Shown piece after piece: positions 2,580 to 44,456 of a stretch of 64,000 nt of DNA (position 1 is the stretch's first letter; the number at the start of each line of letters is the position of its first letter). The position numbers and the translations under genes are program-made. Where the stretch lies: assembly GCF_045037415.1 (NCBI RefSeq), contig NZ_CP173438.1. The stretch is one strand, 5' to 3'. The DNA comes from Escherichia coli (GTDB lineage Bacteria; Pseudomonadota; Gammaproteobacteria; Enterobacterales; Enterobacteriaceae). The notes beneath the pieces are model-generated. The model did no database searches. It was not told the origin of the DNA and was given only the letters and a program-made list of their open reading frames with translations.

Positions 2580-3557
<978 letters not shown>

Positions 3558-3751
3558 TTATCGTTATGATCTACAAAGGCCACCAGCATAACAAATCCGT
3601 GGTCGGTGACAAAAAAAGCAAATTTCGCTTATTAAAACTACATATTGATTGAAGTTTGAATAATCGAGCGATTTTTTAAAAAAGTTTGTTGACCTCAGGT
3701 CATGATTTCCCTAAATTAGCGCCCGTTCCAGCAAGACAGGAACGACAATTT

Positions 3752-3839
3752 GGTGAGGTGTCCGAGTGGCTGAAGGAGCACGCCTGGAAAGTGTGTATAC
3801 GGCAACGTATCGGGGGTTCGAATCCCCCCCTCACCGCCA
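3752..3839 (+). tRNA. serX: tRNA-Ser (GGA anticodon), serX-type
   Basis: 88-nt sequence GGTGAGGTGTCCGAGTGGCTGAAGG…GGTTCGAATCCCCCCCTCACCGCCA with long variable arm and encoded CCA. Confidence 0.95.
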
Positions 3840-3850
3840 TATTTAAAGAA

Positions 3851-3880
3851 GAGCTCGTACGAAAGTACGAGCTTTTTTTT
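3851..3880 (+). terminator. serX rho-independent terminator
   Basis: Stem gagctcgtac/gtacgagc with GAAA loop followed by T8. Confidence 0.8.
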
Positions 3881-3943
3881 CGTATATTGCATACACCGGG
3901 GGGATGAGAAGCCCCAGGCGGAGGTTGACAACTAGCGACAGAC

Positions 3944-5311
3944 TCATTCATCATCCTTGCGGTTGATAAGAATTTCTGCCTCTTTTACTACCACCTTATT
4001 ACGCCCGGTCTCTTTCGCCTCGTAAAGTGCGTTATCAGCCAGTTGATAGATCTCCTTAGGGTTTAACTCATTTTTCTGCGTTACAACAGCGCCAATACTA
4101 ATCGTCACTTTTTGTGGTATGGCGTATTCAGGATTATCGCCAGTTAAACGTTCAACATTTTCCCGAATCCTTTCCGCTAAAGCTTTCGCACATTCAGTAT
4201 CGATCTCCGTCAGCAAGACGCCAAACTCTTCGCCGCCAACGCGCGCTAAAAGGTCATCTGGTCGTATGCTTTTCCCAATGATATTCACCACTGTCTTTAT
4301 CACTTGATCGCCAACCGGATGTCCCCAGGTGTCGTTGACTTTTTTGAAGTGGTCAATATCCATAATCATGACGCAATAAGGTGTTTTTTTGGCCGATGCT
4401 GATTGAACCGTCAGTTCATTAAAAAAATAATTTCTGTTGAATATATTGGTTAAGGGATCGCGATGTGCAATGTCCTTTGTTACTCGTAGCGCACTGAATA
4501 TATGGCACATAAAAATTACCAAAACGGTTAACTTACTGACTACTTCAATAGTGCGACTAATATACCAAATGGACACGCTATACCTGCTCATAAATAACAG
4601 AGAGATATTGTACAGCACGGCACAAAAAGCAATCACCGACACCCCGTTCCAGATATCACAGCGTAAACCATTAAAGTATAGATTAACCGAAAGCAAGGTT
4701 AACCACATGAAAATCATTATGGTAACATATGAGGCTTTCCAAACCACCTGACCATTTTCATTGGTTAACTCGGCAATGTGTAAATCGTAGCTCTCATAAT
4801 GGCTAGAAAATATGTGAGCAACTATCGGCCCCCCAAGAACAAAAAACAAACTTATGCACAAAGTCACTTTTTTGGAAAATAAATTGCGCTGTTTTGTGTT
4901 TTCACTAACTTTATTTATCAATGCCAGAAATATTAACATGCACAAACTCATCTGACGAAACAAATAATAAATTGCAATGTCATTTTGAACAACACTGCTT
5001 GTCAAACGCCCCTCAATAATTTGCTGAATGATAATGACGGTTTTAACAAAGTAAATCAAACAACTTAGAAAAGCCAAACTAAGTATACAGTTTGAAAATT
5101 GCCTACGGTCATAAATGAAATACAACTGCATAAAAATAAATGCAACAGTATCGATAAAAAATAAAGCAATCATAACCATCAGATAGGTTGATCGTGGAAC
5201 AACTTCCTCAACGGTTGGCTGATTGAACCAACTATTAACCAAAACCAATGCAAGCCCAAACAATAAGCTCACTAATACAGTACTACTAATTCCCAAATAG
5301 TCTTTTTCCAT
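3944..5311 (-). CDS. dgcT: Membrane-anchored GGDEF diguanylate cyclase DgcT (YcdT)
   Basis: ORF 3944..5434; start set at ATG 5309-5311 (MEKDYLGISS…); multi-TM N-terminus and C-terminal GGDEF domain (RVGGEEFG); strongly AT-rich. Confidence 0.85.
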   Translation of the reverse strand: MEKDYLGISSTVLVSLLFGLALVLVNSWFNQPTVEEVVPRSTYLMVMIALFFIDTVAFIFMQLYFIYDRRQFSNCILSLAFLSCLIYFVKTVIIIQQIIEGRLTSSVVQNDIAIYYLFRQMSLCMLIFLALINKVSENTKQRNLFSKKVTLCISLFFVLGGPIVAHIFSSHYESYDLHIAELTNENGQVVWKASYVTIMIFMWLTLLSVNLYFNGLRCDIWNGVSVIAFCAVLYNISLLFMSRYSVSIWYISRTIEVVSKLTVLVIFMCHIFSALRVTKDIAHRDPLTNIFNRNYFFNELTVQSASAKKTPYCVMIMDIDHFKKVNDTWGHPVGDQVIKTVVNIIGKSIRPDDLLARVGGEEFGVLLTEIDTECAKALAERIRENVERLTGDNPEYAIPQKVTISIGAVVTQKNELNPKEIYQLADNALYEAKETGRNKVVVKEAEILINRKDDE

Positions 5312-5662
5312 AAAGCTACACCAACCTGTAGGTTGTAGATCCCTTTTTATTATTAATAGATATAAGAACTGTACTGTTGTCAATATGAAAATCCACCCAC
5401 AAACAATACCGATGATGATAGTTGCAGAATGCAATTATTATCACTTTAATGCTTTATACATTTTTTGCTGCAAGGCAGGCGCAAATACTTATAAAAGATT
5501 ATAATAAAATCCTTATAAAGCATTAATTAATAGATACATTAGGAATAACAATTAAATCCGTGAGTGCAGTAGCGCTGCCTTTCATCAGGACTTTCGAAAA
5601 ATCCGAAATCATGCATCGGAATTTACTGATTTAATTATTTTAATCCTAATTTATTTTGAAAA

Positions 5663-5896
5663 AGGTATTGGGATTTATGCCGTATTCCTGAAGATCCTCA
5701 TCATTGGAATGGATTTTCGGGCGAGAAAAGGATTTTATATGGACACTCTGCTCATCATTTCTTCTTCTCATCATCAACAATTCACGTCTCTCTTCCGCGT
5801 TTAATAACGGATTATGAGATGCAAAAATATCTTTCTTTTCAGTTACCTGTAATTAGATACAGAGAGAGATTTTGGCAATACATGGAGTAATACAGG
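5663..5896 (+). promoter_or_regulatory. Probable pgaA 5' leader with GGA (CsrA-type) motifs, including at the SD/start codon
   Basis: AT-rich 594-bp divergent ycdT/pgaA intergenic; GGA motifs at about 5727, 5884, 5894; leader extent taken from literature memory (~234 nt), not visible in sequence. Confidence 0.35.
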
Positions 5897-8320
5897 ATGT
5901 ATTCAAGTAGCAGAAAAAGGTGCCCGAAAACCAAATGGGCTTTGAAAATTCTTACTGCTGCATTTTTAGCAGCGAGTCCCGCGGCGAAGAGTGCTGTTAA
6001 TAACGCCTATGATGCATTGATTATTGAAGCTCGCAAAGGAAATACTCAGCCAGCTTTGTCATGGTTTGCACAAAAATCAACACTCAGTAATAACCAAATT
6101 GCTGACTGGTTACAGATTGCCTTATGGGCCGGGCAAGATAAACAGGTTATTACCGTTTACAACCGCTATCGTCATCAGCAATTACCAGCGCGTGGTTATG
6201 CAGCTGTCGCCGTCGCTTATCGTAACCTGCAACAATGGCAAAACTCGCTTACACTGTGGCAAAAGGCGCTCTCTCTGGAGCCGCAAAATAAGGATTATCA
6301 ACGGGGACAAATTTTAACCCTGGCAGATGCGGGTCACTATGATACTGCGCTGTTTAAACTTAAGCAGCTTAAATCTGGAGCACCGGACAAAGCCAATTTA
6401 CTCGCAGAAGCCTATATCTATAAACTGACGGGGCGTTATCAGGATGAATTACGGGCGATGACAGAGTCATTACCTGAAAATGCATCTAAGCAACAATATC
6501 CCACAGAATACGTGCTGGCATTACGTAATAATCAACTAGCTGCCGCGATTGACGATGCCAATTTAACGCCAGATATTCGCGCTGATATTCATGCCGAACT
6601 GGTCAGACTGTCGTTTATGCCTACGCGCAGTGAAAATGAACGTTATGCCATTGCCGATCGCGCCCTCGCCCAATACGCTGCATTAGAAATTCTGTGGCAC
6701 GATAACCCAGACCGCACTGCCCAGTACCAGCGTATTCAGGTTGATCATCTTGGCGCGTTATTAACTCGCGATCGTTATAGAGACGTTATTTCTCACTATC
6801 AGCGTTTAAAAAAGACGGGGCAAATTATTCCGCCCTGGGCGCTATATTGGGTTGCGTCGGCTTATCTCAAAGATCAGCAGCCGAAAAAAGCACAGTCAAT
6901 AATGACCGAGCTCTTTTATAACAAGGAAACCATTGCCACGGATTTATCCGATGAAGAACTTGCGGATCTCTTTTACAGCCACCTGGAGAGTGAAAATTAT
7001 CCCGGCGCGCTAACTGTCACCAAACATACCATTAATACTTCGCCGCCTTTCCTTCGGCTAATGGGCACGCCTACGAGCATCCCGAATGATACCTGGTTAC
7101 AGGGGCATTCGTTTCTCTCAACCGTAGCAAAATATAGTAATGATCTTCCTCAAGCTGAAATAACAACCAGAGAACTTGCTTATAACGCACCAGGAAATCA
7201 GGGACTGCGCATCGATTACGCGAGTGTGTTACAAGCCCGCGGTTGGCCTCGTGCGGCAGAAAATGAATTAAAAAAAGCAGAAGTGATCGAGCCACGTAAT
7301 ATTAATCTGGAGGTTGAACAAGCCTGGACAGCATTAACGTTACAAGAATGGCAGCAGGCAGCTGTCTTAACCCACGATGTTGTCGAACGTGAACCGCAAG
7401 ATCCCGGCGTTGTACGATTAAAACGTGCGGTTGATGTACATAATCTTGCAGAGCTTCGTATCGCTGGCTCAACAGGAATTGATGCCGAAGGTCCAGATAG
7501 TGGCAAACATGATGTCGACTTAACCACCATCGTTTATTCACCACCGCTGAATGATAACTGGCGCGGTTTTGCTGGATTCGGTTATGCCGATGGACAATTT
7601 AGCGAAGGAAAAGGGATTGTTCGCGACTGGCTGGCAGGTGTTGAGTGGCGGTCACGTAATATCTGGCTCGAGGCGGAGTACGCTGAACGCTTTTTCAATC
7701 ATGAGCATAAACCCGGCGCGCGCCTGTCTGGCTGGTATGATTTTAATGATAACTGGCGTATTGGTTCGCAACTGGAACGCCTCTCTCACCGCGTTCCATT
7801 ACGGGCAATGAAAAATGGTGTTACAGGCAACAGCGCACAGGCTTATGTTCGCTGGTATCAAAATGAGCGGCGTAAGTACGGTGTCTCCTGGGCTTTCACT
7901 GATTTTTCCGACAGTAACCAGCGTCATGAAGTCTCAATTGAGGGTCAAGAACGCATCTGGTCTTCACCATATTTGATTGTCGATTTCCTACCCAATCTGT
8001 ATTACGAACAAAATACAGAACACGACACCCCATACTACAACCCTATAAAAATGTTCGATATTGTTCCGGCATTTGAGGCAAGTCATTTGTTATGGCGAAG
8101 CTATGAAAATAGCTGGGAGCAAATATTCAGCGCAGGTGTTGGTGCCTCCTGGCAAAAACATTATGGCACGGATGTCGTCACCCAACTCGGCTACGGGCAA
8201 CGTATTAGCTGGAATGACGTGATTGATGCTGGCGCAACGCTACGCTGGGAAAAACGACCTTATGACGGTGACAGAGAACACAACTTATACGTTGAATTCG
8301 ATATGACATTCAGATTTTAA
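5897..8320 (+). CDS. pgaA: PGA (poly-beta-1,6-GlcNAc) outer-membrane export porin PgaA
   Basis: 807-aa ORF with signal peptide, TPR region and C-terminal beta-barrel; heads pgaABCD. Confidence 0.95.
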   Translation: MYSSSRKRCPKTKWALKILTAAFLAASPAAKSAVNNAYDALIIEARKGNTQPALSWFAQKSTLSNNQIADWLQIALWAGQDKQVITVYNRYRHQQLPARGYAAVAVAYRNLQQWQNSLTLWQKALSLEPQNKDYQRGQILTLADAGHYDTALFKLKQLKSGAPDKANLLAEAYIYKLTGRYQDELRAMTESLPENASKQQYPTEYVLALRNNQLAAAIDDANLTPDIRADIHAELVRLSFMPTRSENERYAIADRALAQYAALEILWHDNPDRTAQYQRIQVDHLGALLTRDRYRDVISHYQRLKKTGQIIPPWALYWVASAYLKDQQPKKAQSIMTELFYNKETIATDLSDEELADLFYSHLESENYPGALTVTKHTINTSPPFLRLMGTPTSIPNDTWLQGHSFLSTVAKYSNDLPQAEITTRELAYNAPGNQGLRIDYASVLQARGWPRAAENELKKAEVIEPRNINLEVEQAWTALTLQEWQQAAVLTHDVVEREPQDPGVVRLKRAVDVHNLAELRIAGSTGIDAEGPDSGKHDVDLTTIVYSPPLNDNWRGFAGFGYADGQFSEGKGIVRDWLAGVEWRSRNIWLEAEYAERFFNHEHKPGARLSGWYDFNDNWRIGSQLERLSHRVPLRAMKNGVTGNSAQAYVRWYQNERRKYGVSWAFTDFSDSNQRHEVSIEGQERIWSSPYLIVDFLPNLYYEQNTEHDTPYYNPIKMFDIVPAFEASHLLWRSYENSWEQIFSAGVGASWQKHYGTDVVTQLGYGQRISWNDVIDAGATLRWEKRPYDGDREHNLYVEFDMTFRF

Positions 8321-8328
8321 GGATAAAT

Positions 8329-10347
8329 ATGTTACGTAATGGAAATAAATATCTCCTGATGCTGGTGAGTATAATTATGCTCACCGCGTGCATTAGCCAG
8401 TCAAGAACATCATTTATACCGCCACAGGATCGCGAATCTTTACTCGCCGAGCAACCGTGGCCACATAATGGTTTTGTGGTGATTTCATGGCATAACGTTG
8501 AAGACGAAGCTGCCGACCAGCGTTTTATGTCAGTGCGAACATCAGCACTGCGTGAACAATTTGCCTGGCTGCGCGAGAACGGTTATCAACCGGTCAGTAT
8601 TGCTCAAATTCGTGAAGCACATCGAGGAGGAAAACCGCTACCGGAAAAAGCAGTAGTGCTGACTTTTGATGACGGCTACCAGAGTTTTTATACCCGTGTC
8701 TTCCCAATTCTTCAGGCCTTCCAGTGGCCGGCTGTATGGGCTCCCGTCGGCAGTTGGGTCGATACTCCAGCGGATAAACAAGTGAAATTTGGCGATGAGA
8801 TGGTCAGTCGAGAATATTTTGCCACGTGGCAACAAGTGCGAGAAGTTGCGCGTTCCCGGCTCGTTGAGGTCGCTTCTCATACATGGGATTCTCACTACGG
8901 TATTCAGGCTAATGCCACCGGCAGCTTATTGCCTGCATATGTAAATCGTGCATATTTTACTGACCACGCACGGTATGAAACCGCAGCAGAATACCGGGAA
9001 AGAATTCGCCTGGATGCTGTAAAAATGACGGAATACCTGCGTACAAAGGCTGAGGTAAATCCACACGTTTTTGTTTGGCCTTATGGCGAAGCGAATGGCA
9101 TAGCAATAGCGGAATTAAAAAAACTCGGTTATGACATGTTCTTCACCCTTGAATCAGGTTTGGCAAATGCGTCGCAATTAGATTCCATTCCGCGAGTATT
9201 AATCGCCAATAATCCCTCATTAAAAGAGTTTGCCCAGCAAATTATTACCGTACAGGAAAAACCACTACAACGGGTAATGCATATCGATCTTGATTACGTT
9301 TATGACGAAAACCGCCAGCAAATGGATCGCAATATTGATGTGCTAATTCAGCGGGTAAAAGATATGCAAATATCTACCGTGTATTTGCAAGCATTTGCTG
9401 ATCCCGATGGTGATGGGCTGGTTAAAGAGGTCTGGTTTCCAAATCGTTTGCTACCAATGAAAGCAGATATTTTTAGTCGGGTTGCCTGGCAATTGCGTAC
9501 CCGCTCAGGTGTAAACATCTATGCGTGGATGCCGGTATTAAGCTGGGATTTAGATCCCACATTAACGCGAGTAAAATACTTACCAACTGGGGAGAAAAAA
9601 GCACAAATTCATCCTGAACAATACCGCCGTCTCTCTCCTTTCGATGACAGGGTCAGAGCACAAGTTGGTATGTTATATGATGATCTTGCCGGACATGCTG
9701 CTTTTGATGGCATATTGTTCCACGATGATGCTTTGCTTTCAGATTATGAAGATGCCAGTGCAGCGGCTATCGCGGCTTATCAGCAAGCTGGCTTTAGCGG
9801 GAGTCTGAGCGAAATTCGACAAAACCCGGAGCAATTTAAACAGTGGACCCGCTTTAAAAGTCGTGCGTTAGCTGACTTCACTTTAGAACTTAGTGCGCGC
9901 GTAAAAGCCATTCGTGGTCCACATGTTAAAACTGCACGAAATATTTTTGCACTTCCGGTAATACAACCTGAAAGTGAAGCCTGGTTTGCACAGAATTATG
10001 CTGATTTCCTAAAAAGCTATGACTGGACCGCTATTATGGCTATGCCTTATATGGAAGGCGTCACAGAAAAATCGGCTGATCAATGGTTAATACAATTGAC
10101 CAATCAGATGAAAAGCATCCCGCAGGCTAAAGACAAATCAATTTTAGAATTACAGGCACAAAACTGGCAGAAAAATGGTCAGCATCAGGCTATTTCTTCA
10201 CAACAACTCGCTCACTGGATGAGCCTATTACAACTGAATGGAGTGAAAAATTATGGTTATTATCCCGACAATTTTCTGCATAACCAACCTGAAATAGACG
10301 TTATTCGTCCTGAGTTTTCAACAGCCTGGTATCCGAAAAATGATTAA
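8329..10347 (+). CDS. pgaB: PGA N-deacetylase lipoprotein PgaB
   Basis: 672-aa ORF with lipobox (LTACIS) and polysaccharide deacetylase domain. Confidence 0.95.
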
Positions 10348-11665
10348 TCGCATCGTATCGTTTTTTATATTATGTCTGGTGTTATGCATACCCCTATGCG
10401 TAGCGTACTTTCACTCTGGTGAACTGATGATGAGGTTCGTTTTCTTCTGGCCGTTTTTTATGTCCATTATGTGGATTATTGGCGGCGTCTATTTCTGGGT
10501 CTATCGTGAACGCCACTGGCCGTGGGGAGAAAACGCACCAGCCCCCCAGTTGAAAGATAATCCATCTATCTCCATTATCATTCCCTGTTTTAATGAGGAG
10601 AAAAACGTTGAAGAAACCATACATGCCGCTTTAGCACAGCGTTATGAGAACATTGAAGTTATTGCCGTAAATGATGGTTCAACAGACAAAACCCGTGCCA
10701 TCCTGGATCGCATGGCTGCACAAATTCCCCGTCTGCGGGTCATTCATCTGGCGCAAAACCAGGGGAAAGCCATTGCGCTTAAAACCGGAGCTGCCGCGGC
10801 GAAAAGTGAATATCTGGTGTGCATTGATGGCGACGCGTTATTAGACCGCGATGCAGCGGCATATATTGTGGAACCGATGTTGTACAACCCGCGTGTGGGT
10901 GCCGTAACCGGTAATCCTCGTATTCGCACACGTTCTACCCTGGTGGGTAAAATTCAGGTTGGCGAGTATTCCTCAATTATTGGTTTGATCAAGCGGACCC
11001 AGCGTATCTATGGAAACGTATTTACCGTTTCCGGTGTTATTGCCGCATTTCGTCGCAGCGCCCTGGCAGAAGTGGGTTACTGGAGTGACGATATGATCAC
11101 CGAAGATATTGATATTAGCTGGAAGCTGCAGTTGAATCAGTGGACGATTTTTTACGAGCCACGGGCGCTGTGCTGGATATTAATGCCTGAAACGTTAAAA
11201 GGGCTGTGGAATCAGCGCCTGCGCTGGGCTCAGGGCGGTGCAGAAGTATTCCTCAAAAATATGACAAGGTTGTGGCGCAAAGAAAACTTTCGAATGTGGC
11301 CACTGTTTTTTGAATACTGTCTGACGACAATATGGGCCTTTACCTGCCTGGTCGGTTTCATTATTTACGCAGCCCAACTTGCAGGTGTACCGTTAAATAT
11401 TGAATTGACACATATCGCAGCGACACATACTGCCGGAATATTATTGTGTACGTTATGTTTACTGCAATTTATTGTCAGTCTGGTGATTGAGAATCGCTAT
11501 GAGCACAATCTGGCTTCATCGCTTTTCTGGATTATTTGGTTCCCGGTTATTTTCTGGATGCTAAGCCTGGCAACGACGTTGGTATCATTTACACGAGTCA
11601 TGTTGATGCCTAAAAAACAACGCGCTCGTTGGGTAAGTCCCGATCGTGGGATTCTGAGAGGTTAA
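10340..11665 (+). CDS. pgaC: PGA synthase glycosyltransferase (GT2) PgaC
   Basis: 441-aa ORF overlapping pgaB by 8 nt; GT2 motifs (DGSTD, QRLRW). Confidence 0.95.
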
Positions 11666-11666
11666 T

Positions 11667-12080
11667 ATGAACAATCTAATTATTACGACCCGACAATCGC
11701 CAGTACGTTTACTGGTTGATTATGTTGCCACAACTATCTTGTGGACATTATTTGCTTTATTCATATTCTTATTCGCCATTGATCTGCTGACGGGTTATTT
11801 CTGGCAAAGCGAGGCCAGAAGCCGACTTCAGTTCTATTTTTTGCTGGCAGTGGTGAATGCCGTCGTGTTAATCGTCTGGGCGTTGTACAATAAGCTGCGT
11901 TTTCAAAAACAGCAGCATCATGCAGCATACCAATATACGCCGCAAGAATATGCAGAGAGCTTAGCAATACCTGATGAGCTTTATCAGCAACTACAAAAAA
12001 GCCACAGGATGAGCGTACATTTCACCAGCCAGGGACAAATAAAAATGGTGGTTTCAGAAAAAACGCTAGTCCGGGTATAA
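11667..12080 (+). CDS. pgaD: PGA synthase accessory subunit PgaD
   Basis: 137-aa two-TM ORF immediately after pgaC. Confidence 0.9.
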
Positions 12081-12093
12081 ACACCCAAAACAA

Positions 12094-12112
12094 AGCCCGG
12101 TTCGCCCGGGCT
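12094..12112 (-). terminator. phoH rho-independent terminator (also lies 3' of pgaD)
   Basis: Stem agcccgg/ccgggct followed on minus strand by ttgttttgggtgt. Confidence 0.55.
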
Positions 12113-12129
12113 CTGCACCGATAATACAC

Positions 12130-13194
12130 TTAACTGTATGCATGTAGCGTACGTTGGCAAAGTGCCGAACGTACGCAATCCTCTTTACCGAATCGGACGA
12201 TCCCGACCATTTCATCCTCTTCGAAACGTTCCAGCGCGTCACTTAATCCGGAGCGCACGCCGCGAGGCAAATCGCATTGCGTGATATCACCGTTGACGAT
12301 AACCGTCACGTTCTCCCCGAGGCGGGTTAAAAACATTTTCATTTGCGCGGCAGTCACATTCTGCGCCTCGTCAAGAATGACGACTGCATTTTCAAAGGTA
12401 CGTCCACGCATATAGGCGAACGGCGCAATTTCCACCTTCCCTATTTCCGGTCGCAGGCAGTACTGCATAAAGGAAGCCCCTAAGCGACGGACCAGCACGT
12501 CGTAGACCGGGCGAAAATAGGGAGCAAACTTTTCTGCGATATCACCAGGTAAGAAACCAAGATCTTCATCGGCTTGCAGAACTGGACGGGTGACGATAAT
12601 CCTGTCAACATCCTTATGTATCAGGGCCTCTGCCGCTTTTGCTGCGCTGATCCAGGTTTTTCCGCACCCGGCTTCACCCGTGGCAAATATCAGCTGCTTA
12701 CTCTCAATAGCCTTCAGATAGTGCAATTGCGCTTCATTTCGCGCGAGGATGGGCGAGGTATCGCGACTGTCGCGGGCCATACCAATGGCTTCTACGCCGC
12801 TCATTTGCACAAGCGAGGTGACCGATTCTTCTTCACGCTGCTTATGGCTGCGCGAATCCCGTCTCAGCACACGTTTTGCCTCGCGACGAGCTTTGATCAC
12901 TGCTTTTTGTCTTCCCATGGAGAGCACCTTGAGTTGTTTGTATTCATCACACGCGCCGTTGGCAGCGCGATTATGCGCACGAACATCAGAGGGTTGGCTT
13001 CCTTGTAAGCCATAGTTTGCTTTTGGATAAAATGCCGAAAAACGGCTACGCGCACCGTTTACGGCGTCGGTAACACATGAAAAGAAAGGATGAGGTTGAA
13101 AATACAAAGTGACGAGATGACTACCGGAGGAGAAATCTCCGCGAGTGGTGGCGCGCTGATTCTCTAAAACATGTCCAGTACAGGACGTTACCAT
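12130..13194 (-). CDS. phoH: PhoH, phosphate-starvation-inducible ATPase
   Basis: 354-aa ORF with Walker A GEAGCGKT. Confidence 0.9.
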   Translation of the reverse strand: MVTSCTGHVLENQRATTRGDFSSGSHLVTLYFQPHPFFSCVTDAVNGARSRFSAFYPKANYGLQGSQPSDVRAHNRAANGACDEYKQLKVLSMGRQKAVIKARREAKRVLRRDSRSHKQREEESVTSLVQMSGVEAIGMARDSRDTSPILARNEAQLHYLKAIESKQLIFATGEAGCGKTWISAAKAAEALIHKDVDRIIVTRPVLQADEDLGFLPGDIAEKFAPYFRPVYDVLVRRLGASFMQYCLRPEIGKVEIAPFAYMRGRTFENAVVILDEAQNVTAAQMKMFLTRLGENVTVIVNGDITQCDLPRGVRSGLSDALERFEEDEMVGIVRFGKEDCVRSALCQRTLHAYS

Positions 13195-13343
13195 CCGCGA
13201 TCTCCATAGTGACTGACTATCACTGCCGGGAACTTCCGCTGCTACTTAATAAGTACAACAGATTTCGCATTCATTGCAACAATATATTCACTTATATTTA
13301 ACCATAAAACACCATTTCAGTGACATTAGTTTCTACTGGAAAG

Positions 13344-13361
13344 ATGACAGAGTGATGACAG
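13344..13361 (-). promoter_or_regulatory. Pho box (PhoB site) upstream of phoH
   Basis: Minus strand reads CTGTCAT-CACT-CTGTCAT, two 7-bp direct repeats with 4-bp spacer, about 150 bp upstream of phoH start. Confidence 0.55.
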
Positions 13362-13414
13362 TGATGAAAAAAGCTGTGTGCTTTCAGCAGGATTCGCGGT
13401 ACTGGTAAAAGCTT

Positions 13415-13533
13415 GCCGGATGCGGCGTGAACGCCTTATCCGGCCTACCGACCCGCACCGATTGTAGGCATGATAAGACGCGCAAGCGTCGCATCAGCGC
13501 ACGAACGCCTGGTGCGGCGTAAACGCCTTATAC
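13415..13533. repeat. REP/BIME cluster between phoH and efeB
   Basis: GCCGGATGCGGCGTGAACGCCTTATCCGGCCTAC followed by an inverted GTAGGC…GCGTCGCATCAGCGC copy. Confidence 0.6.
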
Positions 13534-13544
13534 GCCTAAAAACA

Positions 13545-14816
13545 TTAAACCCGCAATAATGCGCTTCCGAGATAATCGTTCGCGTCCTTCACACCCGGCA
13601 GCGCAAAGAAATAGCCGCCACCGATAGGTTTGACATATTCCTCCAGCGCCTCGCCATTCAACCTTTTTTGTACTGTCAGGAAGCCCTTTTCCAGATCGTG
13701 TTGGTAGCAGACAAACAGTAGCCCCATATCGAGTTGCCCGGAATTGGTGACGCCCAACGAATAACTGTAGCCACGACGCAGCATCAGGCTGGACTCGCTC
13801 TCCGCCGTGCGGGGATTCGCCAGCCGGATATGGCTGTCCAGCGCAATCACCTTCCCTTCCGGATCGCTAGCGTAATCGGGAACATCATGCTCATGCTGCA
13901 TGCCCAGCGGCGCACCGGTTTGCTTATCACGACCAAATATCGTCTGCTGCTCTTTCAGCGGCGTTCTGTCCCAAAATTCCACTCGAAACTGAATCAAGCG
14001 TACTGCCTGATAGCTGCCACCGATTGTCCACGCAGGCTCCTGCTGATCTGCCGTCACCCACACCACTTTTTGCATCAACTTCGCATTCTGGCTATCGGGA
14101 TTGGCGGTGCCGTCTTTAAAGCCCAGCAAATTTATCGGCGTCTCTTTGCCTTTACTACGCGCTGCGTGGTCGGAAATAAACCCTTCCCGCTTCCAGCGCA
14201 CGCTGAGCAAATCCGGCGTGTGTTTGATGATATCGCGCAGCGCATGGATCACCGTGTCCTGGGTGTTGGCGCAAATTTGTAGCAACACATCACCATGACA
14301 TAACGCCGCATCCAGCGAGTCGTTGGGGAAACGCGTCATCTTCTGCAACTTTTTTGGCATCTGTGGCGCAAGGCCAAAGCGCTCATCAAACAATGAGTGA
14401 CCCACCGATAACGTGATGGTGAGATTATCGGGCGCAATGTAGCCGCCAAGAATGCCGGAATCGAGTGGTGGCAGGCGCGGATTTGGCGTTTCTGGTGCCG
14501 CTCCGCCCTGAGTCAGAAAAGCAAAACGCTGAGTCAACAAGCGAAACAACCGTTCAAGATCGGCTTTATCGCTGGCAAGCACATCAAACGCCACCAGCAT
14601 CATTGCAGCCTGTTGTGGTGTCAGGATCCCTGCCTGATGCTCACCATAAAACGGCTGTTTCTCATTGCGTGCATCCGGTGAAAGCGTACCCGGCGCACTT
14701 TGCGTTTTTTGTGCATGAGCAACCGGACAACTTCCCGCCAGCGCCAGCGCACCAATCCCTTTCAGTAAACGTCGGCGTGACGGTTCATTCACGCCGTTTT
14801 CATCTTCATACTGCAT
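13545..14816 (-). CDS. efeB: Dye-decolorizing/deferrochelatase peroxidase EfeB (Tat-secreted)
   Basis: 423-aa ORF with twin-arginine signal (SRRRLLKG). Confidence 0.9.
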
Positions 14817-14821
14817 AACGC

Positions 14822-15949
14822 TTAGTCCAGCCCCAGCACACCACGAAGTTGCGCCAGATCTTCCGCCAGCGCAGTAATCGGTCCTTTCAGTGCGTTCCGG
14901 TCGGCATCGGTCAGTTTGTCGTAATTTTCAAAACCCTCTTTAGTGCGGTATTTCGCCAGAATGGTATCGACCTTTTTGAAGTTGGCATCGACTTTTGCCA
15001 ACAGTTCCGGATTCGCTTTTTGTAGTTGTGGACGCAGCAGATCGACAATTTTCTGCGAGCCTTCAACGTTAGCCTGGAAATCCCACAGATCGGTGTGGCT
15101 GTAGCGATCTTCTTCACCGCTGATTTTGCTGGCCGCCACTTCCTCAATCAGTCCGGCTGCACCGCCGACCACTTTTGAAGGAGGGAAAGCCAGTTCACTG
15201 ATGCGTTTTTGCAAATCGACCACATCGGTATAAAGCTGGTCAGCATACTTATCCATCCCTTTGGTGGTGTTATCGCCAAACAATGCTTTTTCCAGACGGT
15301 GGAAACCGGTGAATTTTGGATCGGCGGCTTTTTGCTCGTAATCATCTTCACGGGCGTCAATGCTGCCATCCAGATCGGAGAACAGTTCAGCAATCGGTTC
15401 GATGCGCTCATAGTGCTGCCGCGTCGGCGCATACAGTGCTTTCGCTTTTTCGATATCGCCTGCTTTAATAGCGTCGGTAAAGGCTTTGGTGTCGGTCACC
15501 AGTTGCGTGGTTTCCGCCATGACATACGCTTTATATGCAGTAATTGCACCACCAAGACTTAACAGCGCATCACTTTGCGCCGCATCCGCCGTTGCTTCAC
15601 CTTTGACGATCAACTTCCCTTTCGGGTTAGTCAGCAGACCGCAGGTCATATCGTATTCGCCAGGCTGTAAATTCGCCGTCATTTTCTGGCTAAAACCAGG
15701 GGCGATATTTTCCCGCTCTTCCACCACCATCACGCCTTTGAGGATCTCCCACTCCAGCGCCTTCTGGCTGTGGTTCTGAATAATGAACTGTGTTTTCCCG
15801 GCGTTAACCGTAATGGTCATCGGCTCGCACTGCTTATCTGTCACAGTGACTTTGACTTGCGGAATATCGGCGGCGTTAGCCATAAAAGCAGAAGAGAACA
15901 GCGCAGCCACGCTCAACTGCAATGCGTTACGACGGAAGTTAATGGTCAT
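14822..15949 (-). CDS. efeO: Periplasmic iron-uptake protein EfeO
   Basis: 375-aa ORF with signal peptide; sits between efeU and efeB. Confidence 0.9.
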
Positions 15950-17056: not shown

Positions 17057-18565
<1,509 letters not shown>

Positions 18566-18753
18566 CTAAAGTCTCCAAAAAATTATTATCGGCAATGTCG
18601 AAACTTGCCGTTATATCTGCCACCGGAACGGGGTAACAGAGTTTATGTTTTACCAGGGCGACCGTATCCTGCCGGAAGCGCTGGTTATTCACAATCGATT
18701 TAACACACCATTTACATTAAATTTTAGTGCTCAGCGACACTATTTTTCATCAG

Positions 18754-18961
18754 GTTGCACTCTCTCACATTTTTTGCGGTTGCACCTTTCAAAAATGTTA
18801 ACTGCCGCAGAGAAAAAGTCTGAGTTATTTTTTTAATCCCTGTCATATCGATTTCGTTTATTAACATTTCATTCATTTTTAAGCTTGCTACGCAGGTCAC
18901 ATTTAACATGGTTGCACAAAGTTGCAACATCATGGATATTTCACGATAACGTTAAGTTGCA
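18754..18961. promoter_or_regulatory. put control region with five GTTGCA PutA operator motifs
   Basis: GTTGCA at 18754-18759, 18779-18784, 18911-18916, 18921-18926 (palindromic GTTGCAAC) and 18956-18961 in the putP/putA divergent intergenic. Confidence 0.7.
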
Positions 18962-18987
18962 CCTTTCAGAACAACAGGAGTAATGGC

Positions 18988-21900
18988 ATGGGAACCACCA
19001 CCATGGGGGTTAAGCTGGACGACGCGACGCGTGAGCGTATTAAGTCTGCTGCGACACGTATCGATCGCACACCACACTGGTTAATTAAACAGGCGATTTT
19101 TTCTTATCTTGAACAACTGGAAAACAGCGATACTCTCCCGGAGCTACCTGCGCTGCTTTCTGGCGCGGCCAATGAGAGCGATGAAGCACCGACTCCGGCA
19201 GAGGAACCACACCAGCCTTTCCTCGACTTTGCCGAACAAATATTGCCCCAGTCGGTTTCCCGCGCCGCGATCACCGCGGCCTATCGCCGCCCGGAAACCG
19301 AAGCGGTTTCTATGCTGCTGGAACAAGCTCGCCTGCCGCAGCCAGTTGCTGAACAGGCGCACAAACTGGCGTATCAACTGGCCGATAAACTGCGTAATCA
19401 AAAAAACGCCAGTGGTCGCGCAGGTATGGTTCAGGGGTTATTGCAGGAGTTTTCGTTGTCATCGCAGGAAGGCGTGGCGCTGATGTGTCTGGCGGAAGCG
19501 TTGTTGCGTATTCCCGACAAAGCCACCCGTGACGCGTTAATTCGCGACAAAATCAGTAACGGTAACTGGCAGTCACACATTGGTCGTAGCCCGTCCCTGT
19601 TTGTTAATGCCGCTACCTGGGGGCTGCTGTTTACCGGCAAACTGGTTTCCACCCATAACGAAGCCAGCCTCTCCCGCTCGCTGAACCGCATTATCGGTAA
19701 GAGCGGTGAACCGCTGATCCGCAAAGGTGTGGATATGGCGATGCGCCTGATGGGCGAGCAGTTCGTCACGGGCGAAACCATCGCGGAAGCGTTAGCCAAT
19801 GCCCGCAAACTGGAAGAGAAAGGTTTCCGTTACTCTTACGATATGCTGGGCGAAGCCGCACTGACTGCCGCAGACGCACAGGCGTATATGGTTTCCTATC
19901 AGCAGGCGATTCACGCCATTGGTAAAGCGTCTAACGGTCGTGGCATCTATGAAGGTCCGGGCATTTCAATCAAGCTGTCGGCGCTACATCCGCGTTATAG
20001 CCGCGCCCAGTATGACCGGGTAATGGAAGAGCTTTACCCGCGTCTGAAATCACTCACCCTGCTGGCGCGTCAGTACGATATTGGTATTAACATCGATGCC
20101 GAAGAGGCCGATCGCCTGGAGATCTCCCTCGATCTGCTGGAAAAACTCTGTTTCGAGCCTGAACTGGCAGGCTGGAACGGCATCGGTTTTGTTATTCAGG
20201 CTTATCAAAAACGCTGCCCGTTGGTGATCGATTACCTGATTGATCTCGCCACCCGCAGCCGTCGCCGTCTGATGATTCGCCTGGTGAAAGGCGCGTACTG
20301 GGATAGTGAAATCAAGCGTGCACAGATGGACGGCCTTGAAGGTTATCCGGTTTATACCCGCAAGGTGTATACCGACGTTTCTTATCTTGCCTGTGCGAAA
20401 AAACTGCTGGCGGTGCCAAATCTAATCTACCCGCAGTTCGCGACGCACAACGCCCATACGCTGGCGGCAATTTATCAACTGGCGGGTCAAAACTACTACC
20501 CGGGTCAGTACGAGTTCCAGTGCCTGCATGGTATGGGCGAGCCACTGTATGAGCAGGTCACCGGGAAAGTTGCCGACGGCAAACTTAACCGTCCGTGTCG
20601 TATTTATGCTCCGGTCGGTACACATGAAACGCTGCTGGCATATCTGGTGCGCCGCCTGCTGGAAAACGGTGCTAACACCTCGTTTGTTAACCGTATTGCC
20701 GACACCTCTTTGCCACTGGATGAACTGGTCGCCGATCCAGTCACTGCTGTAGAAAAACTGGCGCAACAGGAAGGGCAAACTGGATTACCGCATCCGAAAA
20801 TTCCCCTGCCGCGCGATCTTTACGGTCACGGGCGCGACAACTCGGCAGGGCTGGATCTCGCTAACGAACACCGTCTGGCCTCGCTCTCTTCAGCCCTGCT
20901 CAATAGTGCACTGCAAAAATGGCAGTCCTTGCCAATGCTGGAACAACCGGTAGCGGCAGGTGAGATGTCGCCCGTTATTAACCCTGCGGAACCGAAAGAT
21001 ATTGTGGGCTATGTGCGTGAAGCCACGCCGCGTGAAGTAGAACAGGCGCTGGAAAGTGCGGTTAATAACGCGCCAATCTGGTTTGCCACTCCTCCGGCTG
21101 AACGCGCGGCAATTTTGCATCGCGCTGCCGTGCTAATGGAAAGCCAGATGCAGCAACTGATTGGTATTCTGGTGCGTGAAGCCGGAAAAACCTTCAGTAA
21201 CGCCATTGCCGAAGTGCGCGAAGCGGTCGATTTTCTCCACTACTATGCCGGACAGGTGCGGGATGATTTCGCTAACGAAACCCACCGTCCATTAGGGCCT
21301 GTGGTATGTATCAGTCCGTGGAACTTCCCGCTGGCTATTTTCACCGGACAGATCGCTGCCGCACTGGCGGCAGGTAACAGCGTGCTGGCAAAACCGGCAG
21401 AACAAACGCCGCTGATTGCCGCGCAAGGGATCGCCATTTTGCTGGAAGCGGGTGTACCGCCAGGCGTGGTGCAATTGCTGCCAGGTCGGGGTGAAACCGT
21501 GGGCGCGCAACTGACGGGTGATGATCGCGTGCGCGGGGTGATGTTTACCGGTTCAACCGAAGTCGCTACGTTACTGCAGCGCAATATCGCCAGCCGCCTG
21601 GACGCTCAGGGTCGCCCTATTCCGCTCATCGCTGAAACCGGCGGCATGAACGCGATGATTGTCGATTCTTCAGCACTGACCGAACAAGTCGTAATAGATG
21701 TGCTGGCCTCGGCGTTCGACAGTGCAGGTCAGCGTTGTTCGGCACTGCGCGTGCTGTGCCTGCAAGATGAGATTGCCGACCACACGCTGAAAATGCTGCG
21801 CGGCGCAATGGCCGAATGCCGGATGGGTAATCCGGGTCGCCTGACCACCGATATCGGTCCGGTGATTGATAGCGAAGCGAAAGCCAATATCGAGCGTCAT

Positions 21901-43078: not shown

Positions 43079-43160
43079 ACGCGATTTGAATCAATATCAG
43101 CCAGTTAAGAACAACTAGAATAGTGGCATTTGGTATGCAACTTAACGGACTGGCAAAATC

Positions 43161-44234
43161 ATGGCAGAGAAAAAAAGAACCCGCTGGCAACGGCGGCCAG
43201 GCACGACGGGCGGCAAATTACCGTGGAATGACTGGCGCAATGCCACGACCTGGCGTAAAGCGACGCAATTATTACTGTTGGCAATTAATATTTATATTGC
43301 CATCACGTTCTGGTATTGGGTGCGCTATTACGAAACGGCAGGTAGTACGACATTTGTCACCAGACCGGGTGGTATCGAAGGCTGGCTACCGATTGCCGGT
43401 CTGATGAATCTGAAATATAGCCTTGCAACAGGTCAGTTACCGTCCGTCCACGCCGCCGCGATGCTGTTATTGGTCGCTTTTATCGTCATCAGTCTATTAC
43501 TCAAAAAGGCCTTTTGTTCATGGTTATGCCCGGTTGGTACGCTTTCGGAATTAATCGGCGATCTCGGTAACAAACTGTTTGGTCGGCAATTTGTCCTTCC
43601 CCGCTGGCTGGATATTCCTCTGCGCGGCGTGAAGTATTTGCTGTTGAGTTTTTTTCTCTATATCGCGTTATTGATGCCCGCTCAGGCGATTCACTATTTT
43701 ATGTTGTCGCCCTACAGCGTGGTGATGGACGTTAAAATGCTCGATTTCTTTCGTCATATGGGGACCGCGACATTAATCAGCATGATCGTTTTGCTGATTG
43801 CCAGCCTGTTTATTCGCCATGCCTGGTGTCGTTATCTTTGCCCATATGGCGCGCTGATGGGCGTGGTTTCGCTATTATCGCCGTTTAAGATTCGTCGCAA
43901 TGCCGAAAGTTGTATCGATTGTGGCAAATGCGCAAAAAGTTGCCCATCACGGATCCCGGTCGATAAATTAATTCAGGTACGAACAGTGGAATGTACCGGC
44001 TGTATGACTTGCGTAGAGTCATGTCCGGTAGCCTCAACATTGGCCTTTTCACTGCAAAAACCTGCGGCAAATAAAAAAGCCTTTGCGTTGTCTGGCTGGT
44101 TAATGACGCTACTGGTTATGGGGATTATGTTTGCGGCGATTGGTTACGCAATGTATGCGGGAGTATGGCAAAGCCCGGTGCCGGAGGAATTGTACCAACG
44201 CTTAATTCCGCAATCGCCAATGATTGGTCACTAA
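43161..44234 (+). CDS. yccM: NapH/MauN-like polyferredoxin membrane protein YccM
   Basis: 357-aa ORF; two CxxCxxCxxxCP motifs (CIDCGKCAKSCP, CTGCMTCVESCP) and two CxxxCP motifs (CSWLCP, CRYLCP). Confidence 0.85.
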   Translation: MAEKKRTRWQRRPGTTGGKLPWNDWRNATTWRKATQLLLLAINIYIAITFWYWVRYYETAGSTTFVTRPGGIEGWLPIAGLMNLKYSLATGQLPSVHAAAMLLLVAFIVISLLLKKAFCSWLCPVGTLSELIGDLGNKLFGRQFVLPRWLDIPLRGVKYLLLSFFLYIALLMPAQAIHYFMLSPYSVVMDVKMLDFFRHMGTATLISMIVLLIASLFIRHAWCRYLCPYGALMGVVSLLSPFKIRRNAESCIDCGKCAKSCPSRIPVDKLIQVRTVECTGCMTCVESCPVASTLAFSLQKPAANKKAFALSGWLMTLLVMGIMFAAIGYAMYAGVWQSPVPEELYQRLIPQSPMIGH

Positions 44235-44282
44235 ATTAGCAACAAGCGGAACATCACCTCGCACGGGGTGATGTTCACAAAA

Positions 44283-44456
44283 TCACATTATTTTGATTTT
44301 GACATCATAACTTTCAAGCCCGGTCATTTTTTCTCGTGCGGTGAAGCGAATTTCAGAGACTTCTTTCCCTGTATTCTTGTTCAGCTCGGCGATTTTTTGC
44401 GCGATAAAGTCGGCGATTTCCGTTTCGGCTTGTTTTTTTAACTCTTCAATATTCAC
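44283..44456 (-). CDS. gnsA: Small protein GnsA, GTG start
   Basis: Reverse-strand translation VNIEELKKQAETEIADFIAQKIAELNKNTGKEVSEIRFTAREKMTGLESYDVKIKIM, 57 aa; not in ORF track. Confidence 0.75.
   Translation of the reverse strand: MNIEELKKQAETEIADFIAQKIAELNKNTGKEVSEIRFTAREKMTGLESYDVKIKIM

What the first reader, a model, noticed from the sequence alone, without database searches (positions are those of the whole stretch)
3944..12080. ycdT-pgaABCD forms a visibly AT-richer block next to serX
By eye, ycdT and the pga operon are markedly more AT-rich than flanking genes such as phoH or putA. That fits a horizontally acquired islet anchored at the serX tRNA. It pairs a c-di-GMP synthase (GGDEF) with the c-di-GMP-activated PgaCD synthase, separated by a long AT-rich divergent intergenic.
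Basis: partly seen in the sequence, partly recalled or inferred. Interest (0 to 1): 0.25.

Follow-up and report, generated by a model that had tools for sequence, protein, structure and literature searches.

The report
AT-rich dgcT-pgaABCD biofilm cassette beside serX
This is the well-known E. coli gene block for the PNAG biofilm sugar and its neighbouring c-di-GMP synthase; it really is AT-rich and has moved between strains, but it is not a classic tRNA-integrated island, and most of this is already published.

Summary
Window 3944-12080 is 43.5% GC against 52.4% for the rest of the window. It is the lowest of all 8.1-kb windows, and GC3 is 0.38-0.49 against 0.59.

The block is E. coli dgcT (ycdT) plus pgaABCD, with every expected domain intact.

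Comparison with 5,426 complete E. coli genomes shows a dispensable cassette. Its edges fall at the dgcT stop codon (~3942) and 6 bp past the pgaD stop codon (~12086).
- 78% of genomes carry the cassette.
- 19% carry a 1.3-kb AT-rich DUF2726 cassette in the same slot.
- About 2% carry a divergent allele (70-90% nucleotide identity). In strain 1506 that allele sits inside an island at tRNA-Ile. It is 99.4% identical to the native locus of a divergent Escherichia lineage, so it was transferred recently.

E. coli-type pga is a separate deep lineage from the pga of Klebsiella, Enterobacter and C. freundii (PgaB ~54% identity), and the loci are not syntenic.

The "anchored at serX" reading is only positional. 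The block has no integrase and no repeat of the tRNA end at its far edge. Real integrase islands insert between serX and dgcT.

Low novelty: the joint absence of ycdT and pga, the variable context and horizontal transfer of pga are all published.

The parts
3752..3839 (+). serX, tRNA-Ser(GGA). Its last 19 nt (3821-3839, AATCCCCCCCTCACCGCCA) form the repeat core at which integrase islands and the 181-bp RtT-type repeats begin in other strains.
   Evidence: ARAGORN; Rfam tRNA 53.8 bits. Matches of K-12-like and island-bearing genomes restart at 3821-3826. The 19-mer occurs only once in the window with up to 3 mismatches.
3840..3941 (+). Single truncated copy of the 181-bp serX-downstream repeat unit (annotated 'RtT sRNA' in other strains). 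It includes a terminator-like hairpin followed by a T-run. It is shared with pga-less strains and so lies outside the block.
   Evidence: Alignment A1 with L002/L003 is conserved up to ~3941. K-12-like L004 has 4.4 tandem copies of period 181. There is no RtT hit in the window itself.
3942..12086 (.). The variable cassette as defined by comparison with pga-less E. coli. The left break is 2-3 bp before the dgcT stop codon and the right break is 6 bp after the pgaD stop codon.
   Evidence: Alignments A1 and A2 against L002/L003; junction sequences. GC is 43.5% against 52.4%.
3944..5311 (-). dgcT (ycdT): membrane diguanylate cyclase of 455 aa, with an N-terminal MASE4 sensor domain and a GGDEF domain. 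It has an intact GGEEF active site (residue 359) and an RPDD inhibitory site (residue 350).
   Evidence: Pfam PF17158 at 1.2e-69 and PF00990 at 6.2e-51; motifs; RefSeq annotation of the identical strain. GC is 38.3%.
5312..5896 (.). 585-bp divergent control region at 33% GC, holding the dgcT and pgaA promoters and the long pgaA leader. The last 234 nt contain 8 GGA motifs, including those in and next to the Shine-Dalgarno sequence (CATGGAGTAATACAGGATG).
   Evidence: Sequence; GC and GGA counts; 95.2% identical to the K-12-like region. Assigning these motifs to CsrA and NhaR control rests on prior knowledge (Wang et al. 2005, cited in PMC4287979).
5897..8320 (+). pgaA: outer-membrane PNAG export porin, with N-terminal TPR repeats and a C-terminal beta-barrel.
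   Evidence: Pfam PgaA_barrel PF21197 at 3.1e-137 and TPR_2; annotation.
8329..10347 (+). pgaB: periplasmic PNAG N-deacetylase (CE4 domain) with a C-terminal GHL13 domain.
   Evidence: Pfam PF01522 at 2.6e-23 and PF14883 at 2.5e-144.
10340..11665 (+). pgaC: inner-membrane family-2 glycosyltransferase (PNAG synthase) with a QRLRW motif at residue 292. It overlaps pgaB by 8 nt.
   Evidence: Pfam PF00535 at 1.1e-39; motif.
11667..12080 (+). pgaD: small inner-membrane partner of PgaC. The PgaC-PgaD pair is the c-di-GMP receptor.
   Evidence: Pfam PgaD PF13994 at 9e-16. The c-di-GMP role is from the literature (Steiner 2013, cited in PMC4287979 and PMC5635171).
12087..12129 (.). Shared spacer with a GC-rich hairpin (AGCCCGGTTCGCCCGGGCT) that serves as the phoH terminator. 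Homology with pga-less strains resumes here, marking the right edge of the cassette.
   Evidence: Alignment A2; sequence.

Best explanation
Window ~3942-12086 is the known E. coli dgcT-pgaABCD module. PgaC and PgaD polymerise poly-beta-1,6-N-acetylglucosamine (PNAG) at the inner membrane when c-di-GMP binds them. PgaB partly deacetylates the polymer and PgaA exports it. The divergently transcribed DgcT is a MASE4-GGDEF cyclase that can supply c-di-GMP, and the 585-bp AT-rich region between them carries the promoters and the CsrA-repressed pgaA leader. In evolutionary terms the module is an old, compositionally foreign accessory cassette. It lies in the variable interval between serX and phoH. 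It entered the Escherichia lineage before E. coli split from a divergent Escherichia lineage. Since then it has been lost or replaced (by the DUF2726 cassette), exchanged as divergent alleles by homologous recombination, and at least once carried along with a serX-type integrase island into another tRNA site. It does not move by its own integrase. Shown here: the composition, the edges, the population frequencies, the allele mosaic, the second-site copy, the domain content, and the two deep pga lineages. Inferred: the direction and age of the original acquisition, and the DgcT-to-PgaCD signalling link.
For: Composition. Domains and motifs. Edges at the two stop codons, against pga-less strains. 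Frequencies in 5,426 complete genomes: 4,215 carry at least 80% of the cassette and 4,411 carry any of it; 1,044 carry the alternative 41.5%-GC DUF2726 cassette. Integrase islands and the K-12 ycdU-ymdE-IS3 segment lie between serX and dgcT. Divergent alleles: L008 (divergent Escherichia lineage, native site) has flanks at 91-93% nucleotide identity, dgcT plus intergenic at 70-85%, pgaA 5' at ~89%, pgaA 3' to pgaB at 71-78% and pgaCD at 90-93%. L088 (a true E. coli with 98% flanks) has dgcT at 85% and pgaCD at 95%. About 107 E. coli genomes carry the L008-type allele at 95% identity or more. In strain 1506 that allele lies in a ~39-kb island between nfeF and tRNA-Ile/mug. It has an integrase and a serX-end remnant on one side and IS1 on the other, and it is 99.4% identical to L008 over 8.5 kb. 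The resident serX copy in the same strain is destroyed by IS1. Other taxa: two Citrobacter species have E. coli-type pga (PgaC 89%) between a chemoreceptor gene and a TRAP transporter operon, without dgcT, and it is again AT-richer than its flanks. A metagenomic relative has dgcT (63% identity) paired with pgaA next to cadC. Klebsiella, Cedecea and C. youngae pga are 42/52/66% identical (PgaA/B/C), not syntenic, and have a host-like or higher GC. The PgaB identity matrix and NJ tree show two deep clades, and Citrobacter sp. NCU1 carries one operon of each. Close DgcT homologues come almost only from Escherichia, at 63-99% identity, and the next hits drop to 46% or less. Literature: joint absence of ycdT and pga and a variable upstream context (PMC5635171); divergent ycdT-pga and variants (PMC4287979); pga on mobile elements (bioRxiv 10.1101/2025.05.09.653004).
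Against: The dinucleotide signature of the block is not an outlier. pgaC has ordinary codon usage for this window. Type-1 alleles diverge like their flanks within E. coli, and pgaCD diverges at species level from the divergent Escherichia lineage, so any acquisition is old and cannot be told apart from long residence on these data alone. A published phylogenetic study concluded that vertical inheritance with differential loss dominates in Enterobacteriaceae (PMC5464674). My tree is a crude neighbour-joining tree on one protein. No donor was identified. The genome-contig scan used strict peptide patterns and returned few Escherichia relatives, so the state of this slot in E. albertii and E. fergusonii is unknown.
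Confidence: 0.65

Rival explanations
1. Vertical inheritance with differential loss. On this view pgaABCD was in the enterobacterial ancestor, Salmonella and some E. coli lost it, and its AT-richness is a long-standing local property rather than a mark of transfer.
For: This is the published conclusion of PMC5464674. pgaCD and pgaA 5' diverge at flank level from the divergent Escherichia lineage, and type-1 alleles track their flanks within E. coli. The dinucleotide signature is not an outlier.
Against: E. coli-type PgaB is ~54% identical to C. freundii, Enterobacter, Klebsiella and Kosakonia, and also to Xenorhabdus, Serratia and Alloalcanivorax. It is 53% identical to Cupriavidus, while clade-I proteins are only 56-59% identical to Cupriavidus, so a faster rate alone does not explain the gap. 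One Citrobacter species carries both lineages. pga lies in different genomic contexts in Citrobacter, Klebsiella, Cedecea and the cadC-linked contig. Direct transfer is seen within Escherichia.
Confidence: 0.2
2. Classic tRNA-anchored integrative island. On this view an integrase inserted dgcT-pgaABCD at the serX 3' end, and the integrase and distal att site have since decayed.
For: The block starts 104 bp from serX. serX is a proven integration hotspot. The composition is atypical. There is a present/replaced polymorphism with sharp edges.
Against: There is no integrase or other mobility gene in 3942-12086. There is no second copy of the serX 3' 19-mer anywhere in the window, even allowing 3 mismatches. 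The longest repeat shared by the two ends is 7-8 nt, no better than shuffled sequence. Present-day serX islands insert upstream of dgcT and treat it as flank. In the cadC-linked and Citrobacter loci no tRNA is adjacent.
Confidence: 0.08
3. The AT-richness is a functional by-product with no transfer involved. Possible causes are membrane-protein amino-acid composition, low expression with weak codon bias, and AT-rich regulatory DNA.
For: dgcT has low GC at codon positions 1 and 2 (0.43/0.31), as expected for a polytopic membrane protein. The most AT-rich part is the regulatory intergenic region. ycdT is reported as very weakly expressed (PMC4287979).
Against: Third-position GC is shifted in every gene, at 0.38-0.49 against 0.59. 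Other membrane-protein genes in the window (putP, rutG, appB, appC) have GC3 of 0.60-0.64. Clade-I pga operons with the same functions are GC-rich in Klebsiella and Cedecea at 57-64%. The E. coli-type operon is also AT-richer than its flanks in Citrobacter.
Confidence: 0.07

Closest known systems
E. coli K-12 ycdT(dgcT)-pgaABCD locus (Wang, Preston and Romeo 2004; Itoh 2008; Steiner 2013; Jonas 2008)
   Same: The genes, order, orientation and domains are the same. Nucleotide identity to the K-12-like locus is 96-98%, and the control region is 95% identical with the same GGA-rich leader.
   Different: This strain lacks the K-12 IS3, ymdE and ycdU segment and three of the four-plus RtT repeat copies between serX and dgcT. 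As a result dgcT keeps its full 455-codon 3' end, which differs from K-12 over the last ~14 codons.
serX-integrated genomic islands of E. coli. Examples are the integrase islands in strains GN02350 and 1506. From memory, the tellurite-resistance/adherence O-islands of O157:H7 at serW and serX are also of this kind.
   Same: They use the same tRNA and the same 19-nt serX 3' core, and they lie immediately next to dgcT.
   Different: Those islands carry a tyrosine integrase and are bounded by a duplicate of the serX end. The dgcT-pga block has neither and lies outside them.
pgaABCD/hmsHFRS operons of other Enterobacterales (Klebsiella, Enterobacter, C. freundii, Cedecea, Xenorhabdus, Serratia)
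   Same: The four-gene (or three-gene) architecture and the domain families are the same.
   Different: Identity is only ~42% for PgaA, 52-55% for PgaB and 65-67% for PgaC. The chromosomal context differs, no dgcT partner was seen within 10 kb, and GC is host-like or higher. These operons form a separate deep clade in the PgaB tree.
tyrT-type RtT 178-bp repeats (Rfam RtT). This comparison is to the serX-downstream repeat, not to the block.
   Same: These are tandem units that each restart with the 3' end of the upstream tRNA. PGAP annotates them as RtT sRNA next to serX in other strains.
   Different: In this window only one truncated unit remains, and no RtT match was returned even at E-value up to 1.

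Membership tests
PgaABCD PNAG synthesis/export system | PgaA: TPR region plus C-terminal outer-membrane beta-barrel | tested here: met
   PF21197 at 3.1e-137 over residues 514-807; TPR_2 at residues 98-131
PgaABCD PNAG synthesis/export system | PgaB: CE4 polysaccharide deacetylase domain plus GHL13 C-terminal domain | tested here: met
   PF01522 at 2.6e-23 and PF14883 at 2.5e-144
PgaABCD PNAG synthesis/export system | PgaC: family-2 glycosyltransferase with a Q-x-x-R-W motif | tested here: met
   PF00535 at 1.1e-39; QRLRW at residue 292
PgaABCD PNAG synthesis/export system | PgaD: small membrane partner encoded directly after pgaC | tested here: met
   PF13994 at 9e-16; pgaD starts 2 nt after the pgaC stop codon
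PgaABCD PNAG synthesis/export system | The system produces and exports PNAG in a c-di-GMP-dependent way | not testable with these tools
   Known for the 97%-identical K-12 locus from the literature (cited in PMC4287979 and PMC5635171). It was not measured for this strain.
Active GGDEF diguanylate cyclase (DgcT/YcdT) | GGDEF domain with an intact GG(D/E)EF active site | tested here: met
   PF00990 at 6.2e-51; GGEEF at residue 359
Active GGDEF diguanylate cyclase (DgcT/YcdT) | RxxD inhibitory site five residues upstream of the active site, and an N-terminal MASE4 membrane sensor | tested here: met
   RPDD at residue 350; PF17158 at 1.2e-69
Active GGDEF diguanylate cyclase (DgcT/YcdT) | Cyclase activity that feeds PgaCD specifically | not testable with these tools
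   Only suggested in the literature on the basis of divergent transcription and shared CsrA control. ycdT is reported as very weakly expressed (PMC4287979).
tRNA-anchored integrative genomic island | Lies directly next to the 3' end of a tRNA gene | tested here: met
   serX ends at 3839 and the block starts at ~3942
tRNA-anchored integrative genomic island | Encodes an integrase or other mobility gene | tested here: not met
   Only dgcT and pgaABCD lie in 3942-12086
tRNA-anchored integrative genomic island | Bounded distally by a direct repeat of the tRNA 3' end (attR) | tested here: not met
   The serX 19-mer occurs once in the window with up to 3 mismatches. Repeats shared by the two block ends are no longer than chance.
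tRNA-anchored integrative genomic island | Atypical base composition and a presence/absence polymorphism with sharp edges | tested here: met
   43.5% against 52.4% GC. 78% of genomes have the block and 19% have it replaced. The edges fall at the two stop codons.

The most novel reading that the evidence does not exclude
The dgcT-pgaABCD slot may hold a long-lived set of at least three allele classes in Escherichia that differ by 15-30% in nucleotide sequence. The differences are confined to sharp segments: the DgcT sensor half plus the control region, and the PgaA barrel plus PgaB. pgaC, pgaD and the 5' part of pgaA stay at species-level divergence. These classes might be maintained or repeatedly imported under diversifying selection on the envelope-exposed parts, for example from phage, the immune system or polysaccharide specificity. 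On this reading the module is an exchangeable 'serotype-like' cassette rather than a simple present/absent gene set.
Probability: 0.2. Interest if true: 0.45.

Novelty: already known. Interest (0 to 1): 0.2.

Why it matters
PNAG is a major biofilm adhesin and a vaccine target, so it matters which strains carry it, which allele they carry, and how it moves. The analysis sharpens a known picture in four ways. It gives base-pair edges for the cassette and population frequencies for the two alternative cassettes (78% and 19%). It documents a case of a whole dgcT-pga unit copied into an island at another tRNA. It also shows that E. coli-type pga is not the vertical counterpart of the pga operons of most Enterobacteriaceae, which qualifies the published 'vertical inheritance plus loss in Salmonella' account. 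None of this changes how the system is thought to work.

Tried and rejected
- Rfam scan of 3500-6100 at E-value up to 1: only the tRNA passed its gathering score. There was no RtT match and no known RNA in the pgaA leader.
- Search for att-like repeats: there is no second serX 3' 19-mer, and there are no end-to-end repeats above chance.
- Dinucleotide signature (delta*): not an outlier, so it gives no support for foreignness.
- Plasmid collection: there were 11 hits. Ten are 'non-mobilizable' and the records range from 160 kb to 4.8 Mb. These are most likely chromosome pieces or whole chromosomes filed as plasmids, so I do not count them as evidence of plasmid carriage.
- Wang et al. 2004 (PMC387819) is not held. 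My recollection that its abstract says the operon 'exhibits features of a horizontally transferred locus' is from memory only.
- The genome-contig scan with PgaC used strict 8-residue patterns and returned only about 15 true pga loci. It could not answer what E. albertii, E. fergusonii or Salmonella have in the serX-phoH slot.
- I tested whether the cadC-linked dgcT-pga contig (L087) sits next to a tRNA. None was found.
- Literature search for direct DgcT-PgaD evidence: nothing was found.
- A first attempt to check the torS frameshift used the wrong strand. On the correct strand the window has a 910-codon open frame. I did not pursue this further.
Full report
**Identity and observation**

The window is E. 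coli chromosome. Its first 16 kb are 100% identical to strain C9. The finding covers dgcT (ycdT, 3944-5311, minus strand) and pgaABCD (5897-12080, plus strand). On one side lies serX, a tRNA-Ser(GGA) at 3752-3839. On the other lies phoH (12130-12918, minus strand).

The compositional claim is correct and strong.
- The interval is 43.5% GC and the rest of the window is 52.4%.
- The lowest of all 8,137-bp windows starts at 3951. No non-overlapping window of that size falls below 50.4%.
- Third-position GC is 0.38-0.49 in the five genes. In 28 other genes of at least 600 nt it is 0.586 +/- 0.05 (p = 1e-4).
- Codon usage is an outlier for dgcT, pgaA and pgaB, but not for pgaC.
- The 585-bp divergent intergenic region is 33% GC.

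There are two caveats. The block is not uniform: dgcT plus intergenic is 36.7% GC and pgaABCD is 45.6%. Its dinucleotide signature is also within the range of other windows.

**What the genes are**

All expected domains are present at very strong scores.
- DgcT has a MASE4 sensor and a GGDEF domain, with GGEEF at residue 359 and RPDD at residue 350.
- PgaA has TPR repeats and the PgaA beta-barrel.
- PgaB has CE4 deacetylase and GHL13 domains.
- PgaC is a GT2 enzyme with a QRLRW motif.
- PgaD belongs to the PgaD family.

The control region is 95% identical to that of K-12-like strains. Its last 234 nt contain 8 GGA motifs, including those at the ribosome-binding site. This fits the known CsrA-repressed leader, an assignment that rests on prior knowledge cited in PMC4287979.

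The mechanism is the established one. c-di-GMP binds PgaC-PgaD and activates PNAG synthesis, PgaB deacetylates the polymer, and PgaA exports it (literature cited in PMC4287979 and PMC5635171). That DgcT is the dedicated c-di-GMP source has only been suggested, and ycdT is reported as very weakly expressed (PMC4287979).

**Edges of the block**

Some E. coli lack dgcT and pga entirely (L002, L003). Aligned to the window, they stay homologous through serX and about 100 bp beyond, up to ~3941. That is 2-3 bp before the dgcT stop codon. Homology resumes at ~12087, 6 bp after the pgaD stop codon, at the phoH terminator hairpin.

In place of the block these strains carry extra serX-downstream repeats and a 1.3-kb segment with a DUF2726 gene. 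That segment is also AT-rich, at 41.5% GC.

Across 5,426 complete genomes, 4,215 (78%) hold at least 80% of the dgcT-pga block and 4,411 hold some of it. The DUF2726 cassette is held by 1,044 (19%).

**Is it anchored at serX?**

serX is a true integration hotspot, but the block is not what integrates there.
- In strain GN02350, an island with a tyrosine integrase lies between serX and dgcT. Homology to the window restarts at 3826, inside the last 19 nt of serX.
- In K-12-like strains, 4.4 tandem 181-bp units lie between serX and dgcT, each restarting with that same 19-mer. They are followed by ycdU, ymdE and IS3.
- The block itself has no integrase.
- The 19-mer has no second copy in the window, even allowing three mismatches.
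- The two block ends share nothing longer than 7-8 nt, no better than shuffled sequence.

'Anchored at serX' is therefore true as a position and not supported as a mechanism.

**Evidence for a separate history**

L008 is a divergent Escherichia lineage, filed in NCBI as E. coli, whose flanks are 91-93% identical to the window. It carries the block at the same site. Identity along the block is mosaic:

| Segment | Nucleotide identity to the window |
|---|---|
| dgcT plus control region | 70-85% |
| First ~900 nt of pgaA | ~89% |
| Rest of pgaA plus pgaB | 71-78% |
| pgaC-pgaD | 90-93% |

L088 is a bona fide E. coli with 98% flanks. It has a third allele, with dgcT at 85% and pgaCD at 95%. In contrast, K-12-like and GN02350 alleles differ from the window by the same amount as their flanks, at 96-99%.

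About 107 E. coli genomes carry the L008-type allele at 95% identity or more. In strain 1506 this allele is not at serX. It sits in a composite island of about 39 kb between nfeF and tRNA-Ile/mug. On one side it is bordered by a tyrosine integrase plus a serX-end/RtT remnant, and on the other by IS1. It is 99.4% identical to L008 over 8.5 kb, ending about 3 bp into phoH. The resident serX-phoH copy in the same strain is broken by IS1 insertions.

This is direct evidence that the whole unit has recently moved between Escherichia lineages. It travelled alongside a serX-type island, not under its own power.

**Other Enterobacteriaceae**

- Two Citrobacter species have an E. coli-type operon (PgaC 89%, PgaB 80%, PgaA 73%, PgaD 53-56%). 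It lies between a chemoreceptor gene and a TRAP transporter operon, with no dgcT, phoH or tRNA nearby. It is again AT-richer than its flanks.
- A metagenomic contig has a 63%-identical dgcT that is still divergent from pgaA, but next to cadC-cadB (84.5% identical to E. coli) and with no tRNA.
- Klebsiella, Cedecea and C. youngae operons are only 42/52/66% identical for PgaA/B/C. They are not syntenic and have host-like or higher GC.
- A PgaB identity matrix and neighbour-joining tree give two deep clades. The E. coli type is ~54% identical to C. freundii, Enterobacter and Klebsiella, and equally to Xenorhabdus, Serratia and Alloalcanivorax. Both clades are similarly distant from Cupriavidus (53% and 56-59%). 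Citrobacter sp. NCU1 carries one operon of each clade.
- Close DgcT homologues come almost only from Escherichia, spanning 63-99% identity. The next hits drop to 46% or less.

These results do not fit the purely vertical account with differential loss published in PMC5464674. My tree is crude, however, and the published view cannot be excluded for the deepest node.

**Conclusion**

The block is best read as an old, compositionally foreign accessory cassette in the variable serX-phoH interval. It was present before E. coli split from the divergent Escherichia lineage represented by L008. Since then it has been lost or replaced in about a fifth of strains, exchanged as divergent alleles by recombination, and occasionally co-mobilised with neighbouring integrase islands.

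Most of this is already in the literature:
- joint absence of ycdT and pga between phoH and csgG, and a phage-like context upstream of ycdT (PMC5635171);
- variants of the divergent ycdT-pga region (PMC4287979);
- pga on mobile elements (bioRxiv 10.1101/2025.05.09.653004);
- from memory only, a 2004 statement that the operon has features of a horizontally transferred locus.

Interest is therefore low. The allele mosaic and the island-borne second copy are the only parts that might merit a short follow-up.

Noticed in passing
window 3821-3941; L004 5277-6080; L002 5820-6300: serX is followed by 181-bp tandem units that each restart with the last 19 nt of the tRNA. PGAP annotates them as 'RtT sRNA'. 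K-12-like strains have 4.4 copies and pga-less strains have 2-3. This window keeps only one truncated unit, and no RtT match was returned even at E-value up to 1.
   Followed up: partly
L002 6199-7520 (the same slot as window 3942-12086): The alternative cassette in 19% of E. coli genomes is an AT-rich (41.5% GC) 1.3-kb segment with a 228-aa DUF2726 protein. That protein has no NCBIfam match at E-value up to 1e-5. E. coli O127:H6 carries a 93.6%-identical version, so this cassette is itself old and variable.
   Followed up: partly
L084-L086 (NZ_CP059288.1 646.8-685.9 kb) and L089 30648-38498: E. coli strain 1506 has two dgcT-pga loci. The resident K-12-like copy at serX-phoH is broken by IS1 in dgcT, pgaA and pgaB. 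An intact divergent copy lies inside a composite island at tRNA-Ile/mug, which also carries two integrases, a type I restriction-modification system, Ag43 and a CbtA/CbeA toxin-antitoxin pair.
   Followed up: yes
window 6800 and 10000 (against L008): There are sharp identity steps inside pgaA (~6800) and near the 3' end of pgaB (~10000). Across them, identity to the allele of the divergent Escherichia lineage jumps between ~75% and ~90%. These look like recombination breakpoints.
   Followed up: partly
L088 (E. coli CP125919.1) 11400-15011: In this strain an IS3 transposase and a GmrSD-family gene lie between dgcT and ghrA, and ARAGORN finds no serX. The tRNA may have been lost or disrupted there. 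From memory, serW is an identical second copy in E. coli.
   Followed up: no
PgaB homologues P0138, P0077, P0149: Plesiomonas PgaB is 81% identical to that of C. freundii, which is more than C. freundii is to C. youngae (61%). PgaB of Alloalcanivorax, from outside the Enterobacterales, is 61-70% identical to the enterobacterial clade-I proteins. This points to pga transfers well beyond Escherichia.
   Followed up: no
plasmid collection hits H70-H80: The block matches 11 'plasmid' records of 160 kb to 4.8 Mb. Ten are called non-mobilizable. Some are clearly whole chromosomes and the others look like chromosome fragments filed as plasmids. Claims of plasmid-borne pga that rest on such records need care.
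   Followed up: no
window 45348-46858: appA (minus strand) and cspH (plus strand) overlap by 13 bp. From memory of the K-12 map, the gfc-etp-etk capsule cluster lies between them in K-12, so it seems to be absent from this strain. That would account for part of the 14-kb shorter serX-serT distance.
   Followed up: no
window 13201-13600: The phoH-efeB intergenic region shows an 83-column indel and lower identity (83.5%) against the divergent Escherichia lineage. The literature places a REP element here (REP95 in PMC5635171).
   Followed up: no
window 18501-19000, 32001-33000, 43001-46000: These are other local AT-rich spots: the putP/putA control region with a 69-codon ORF (39% GC in a 500-bp window), the agp-cbpA intergenic region (44.5%), and the yccM-gnsA-ymcE-cspG-cspH cluster (45-48%). 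None approaches the size of the dgcT-pga block.
   Followed up: no
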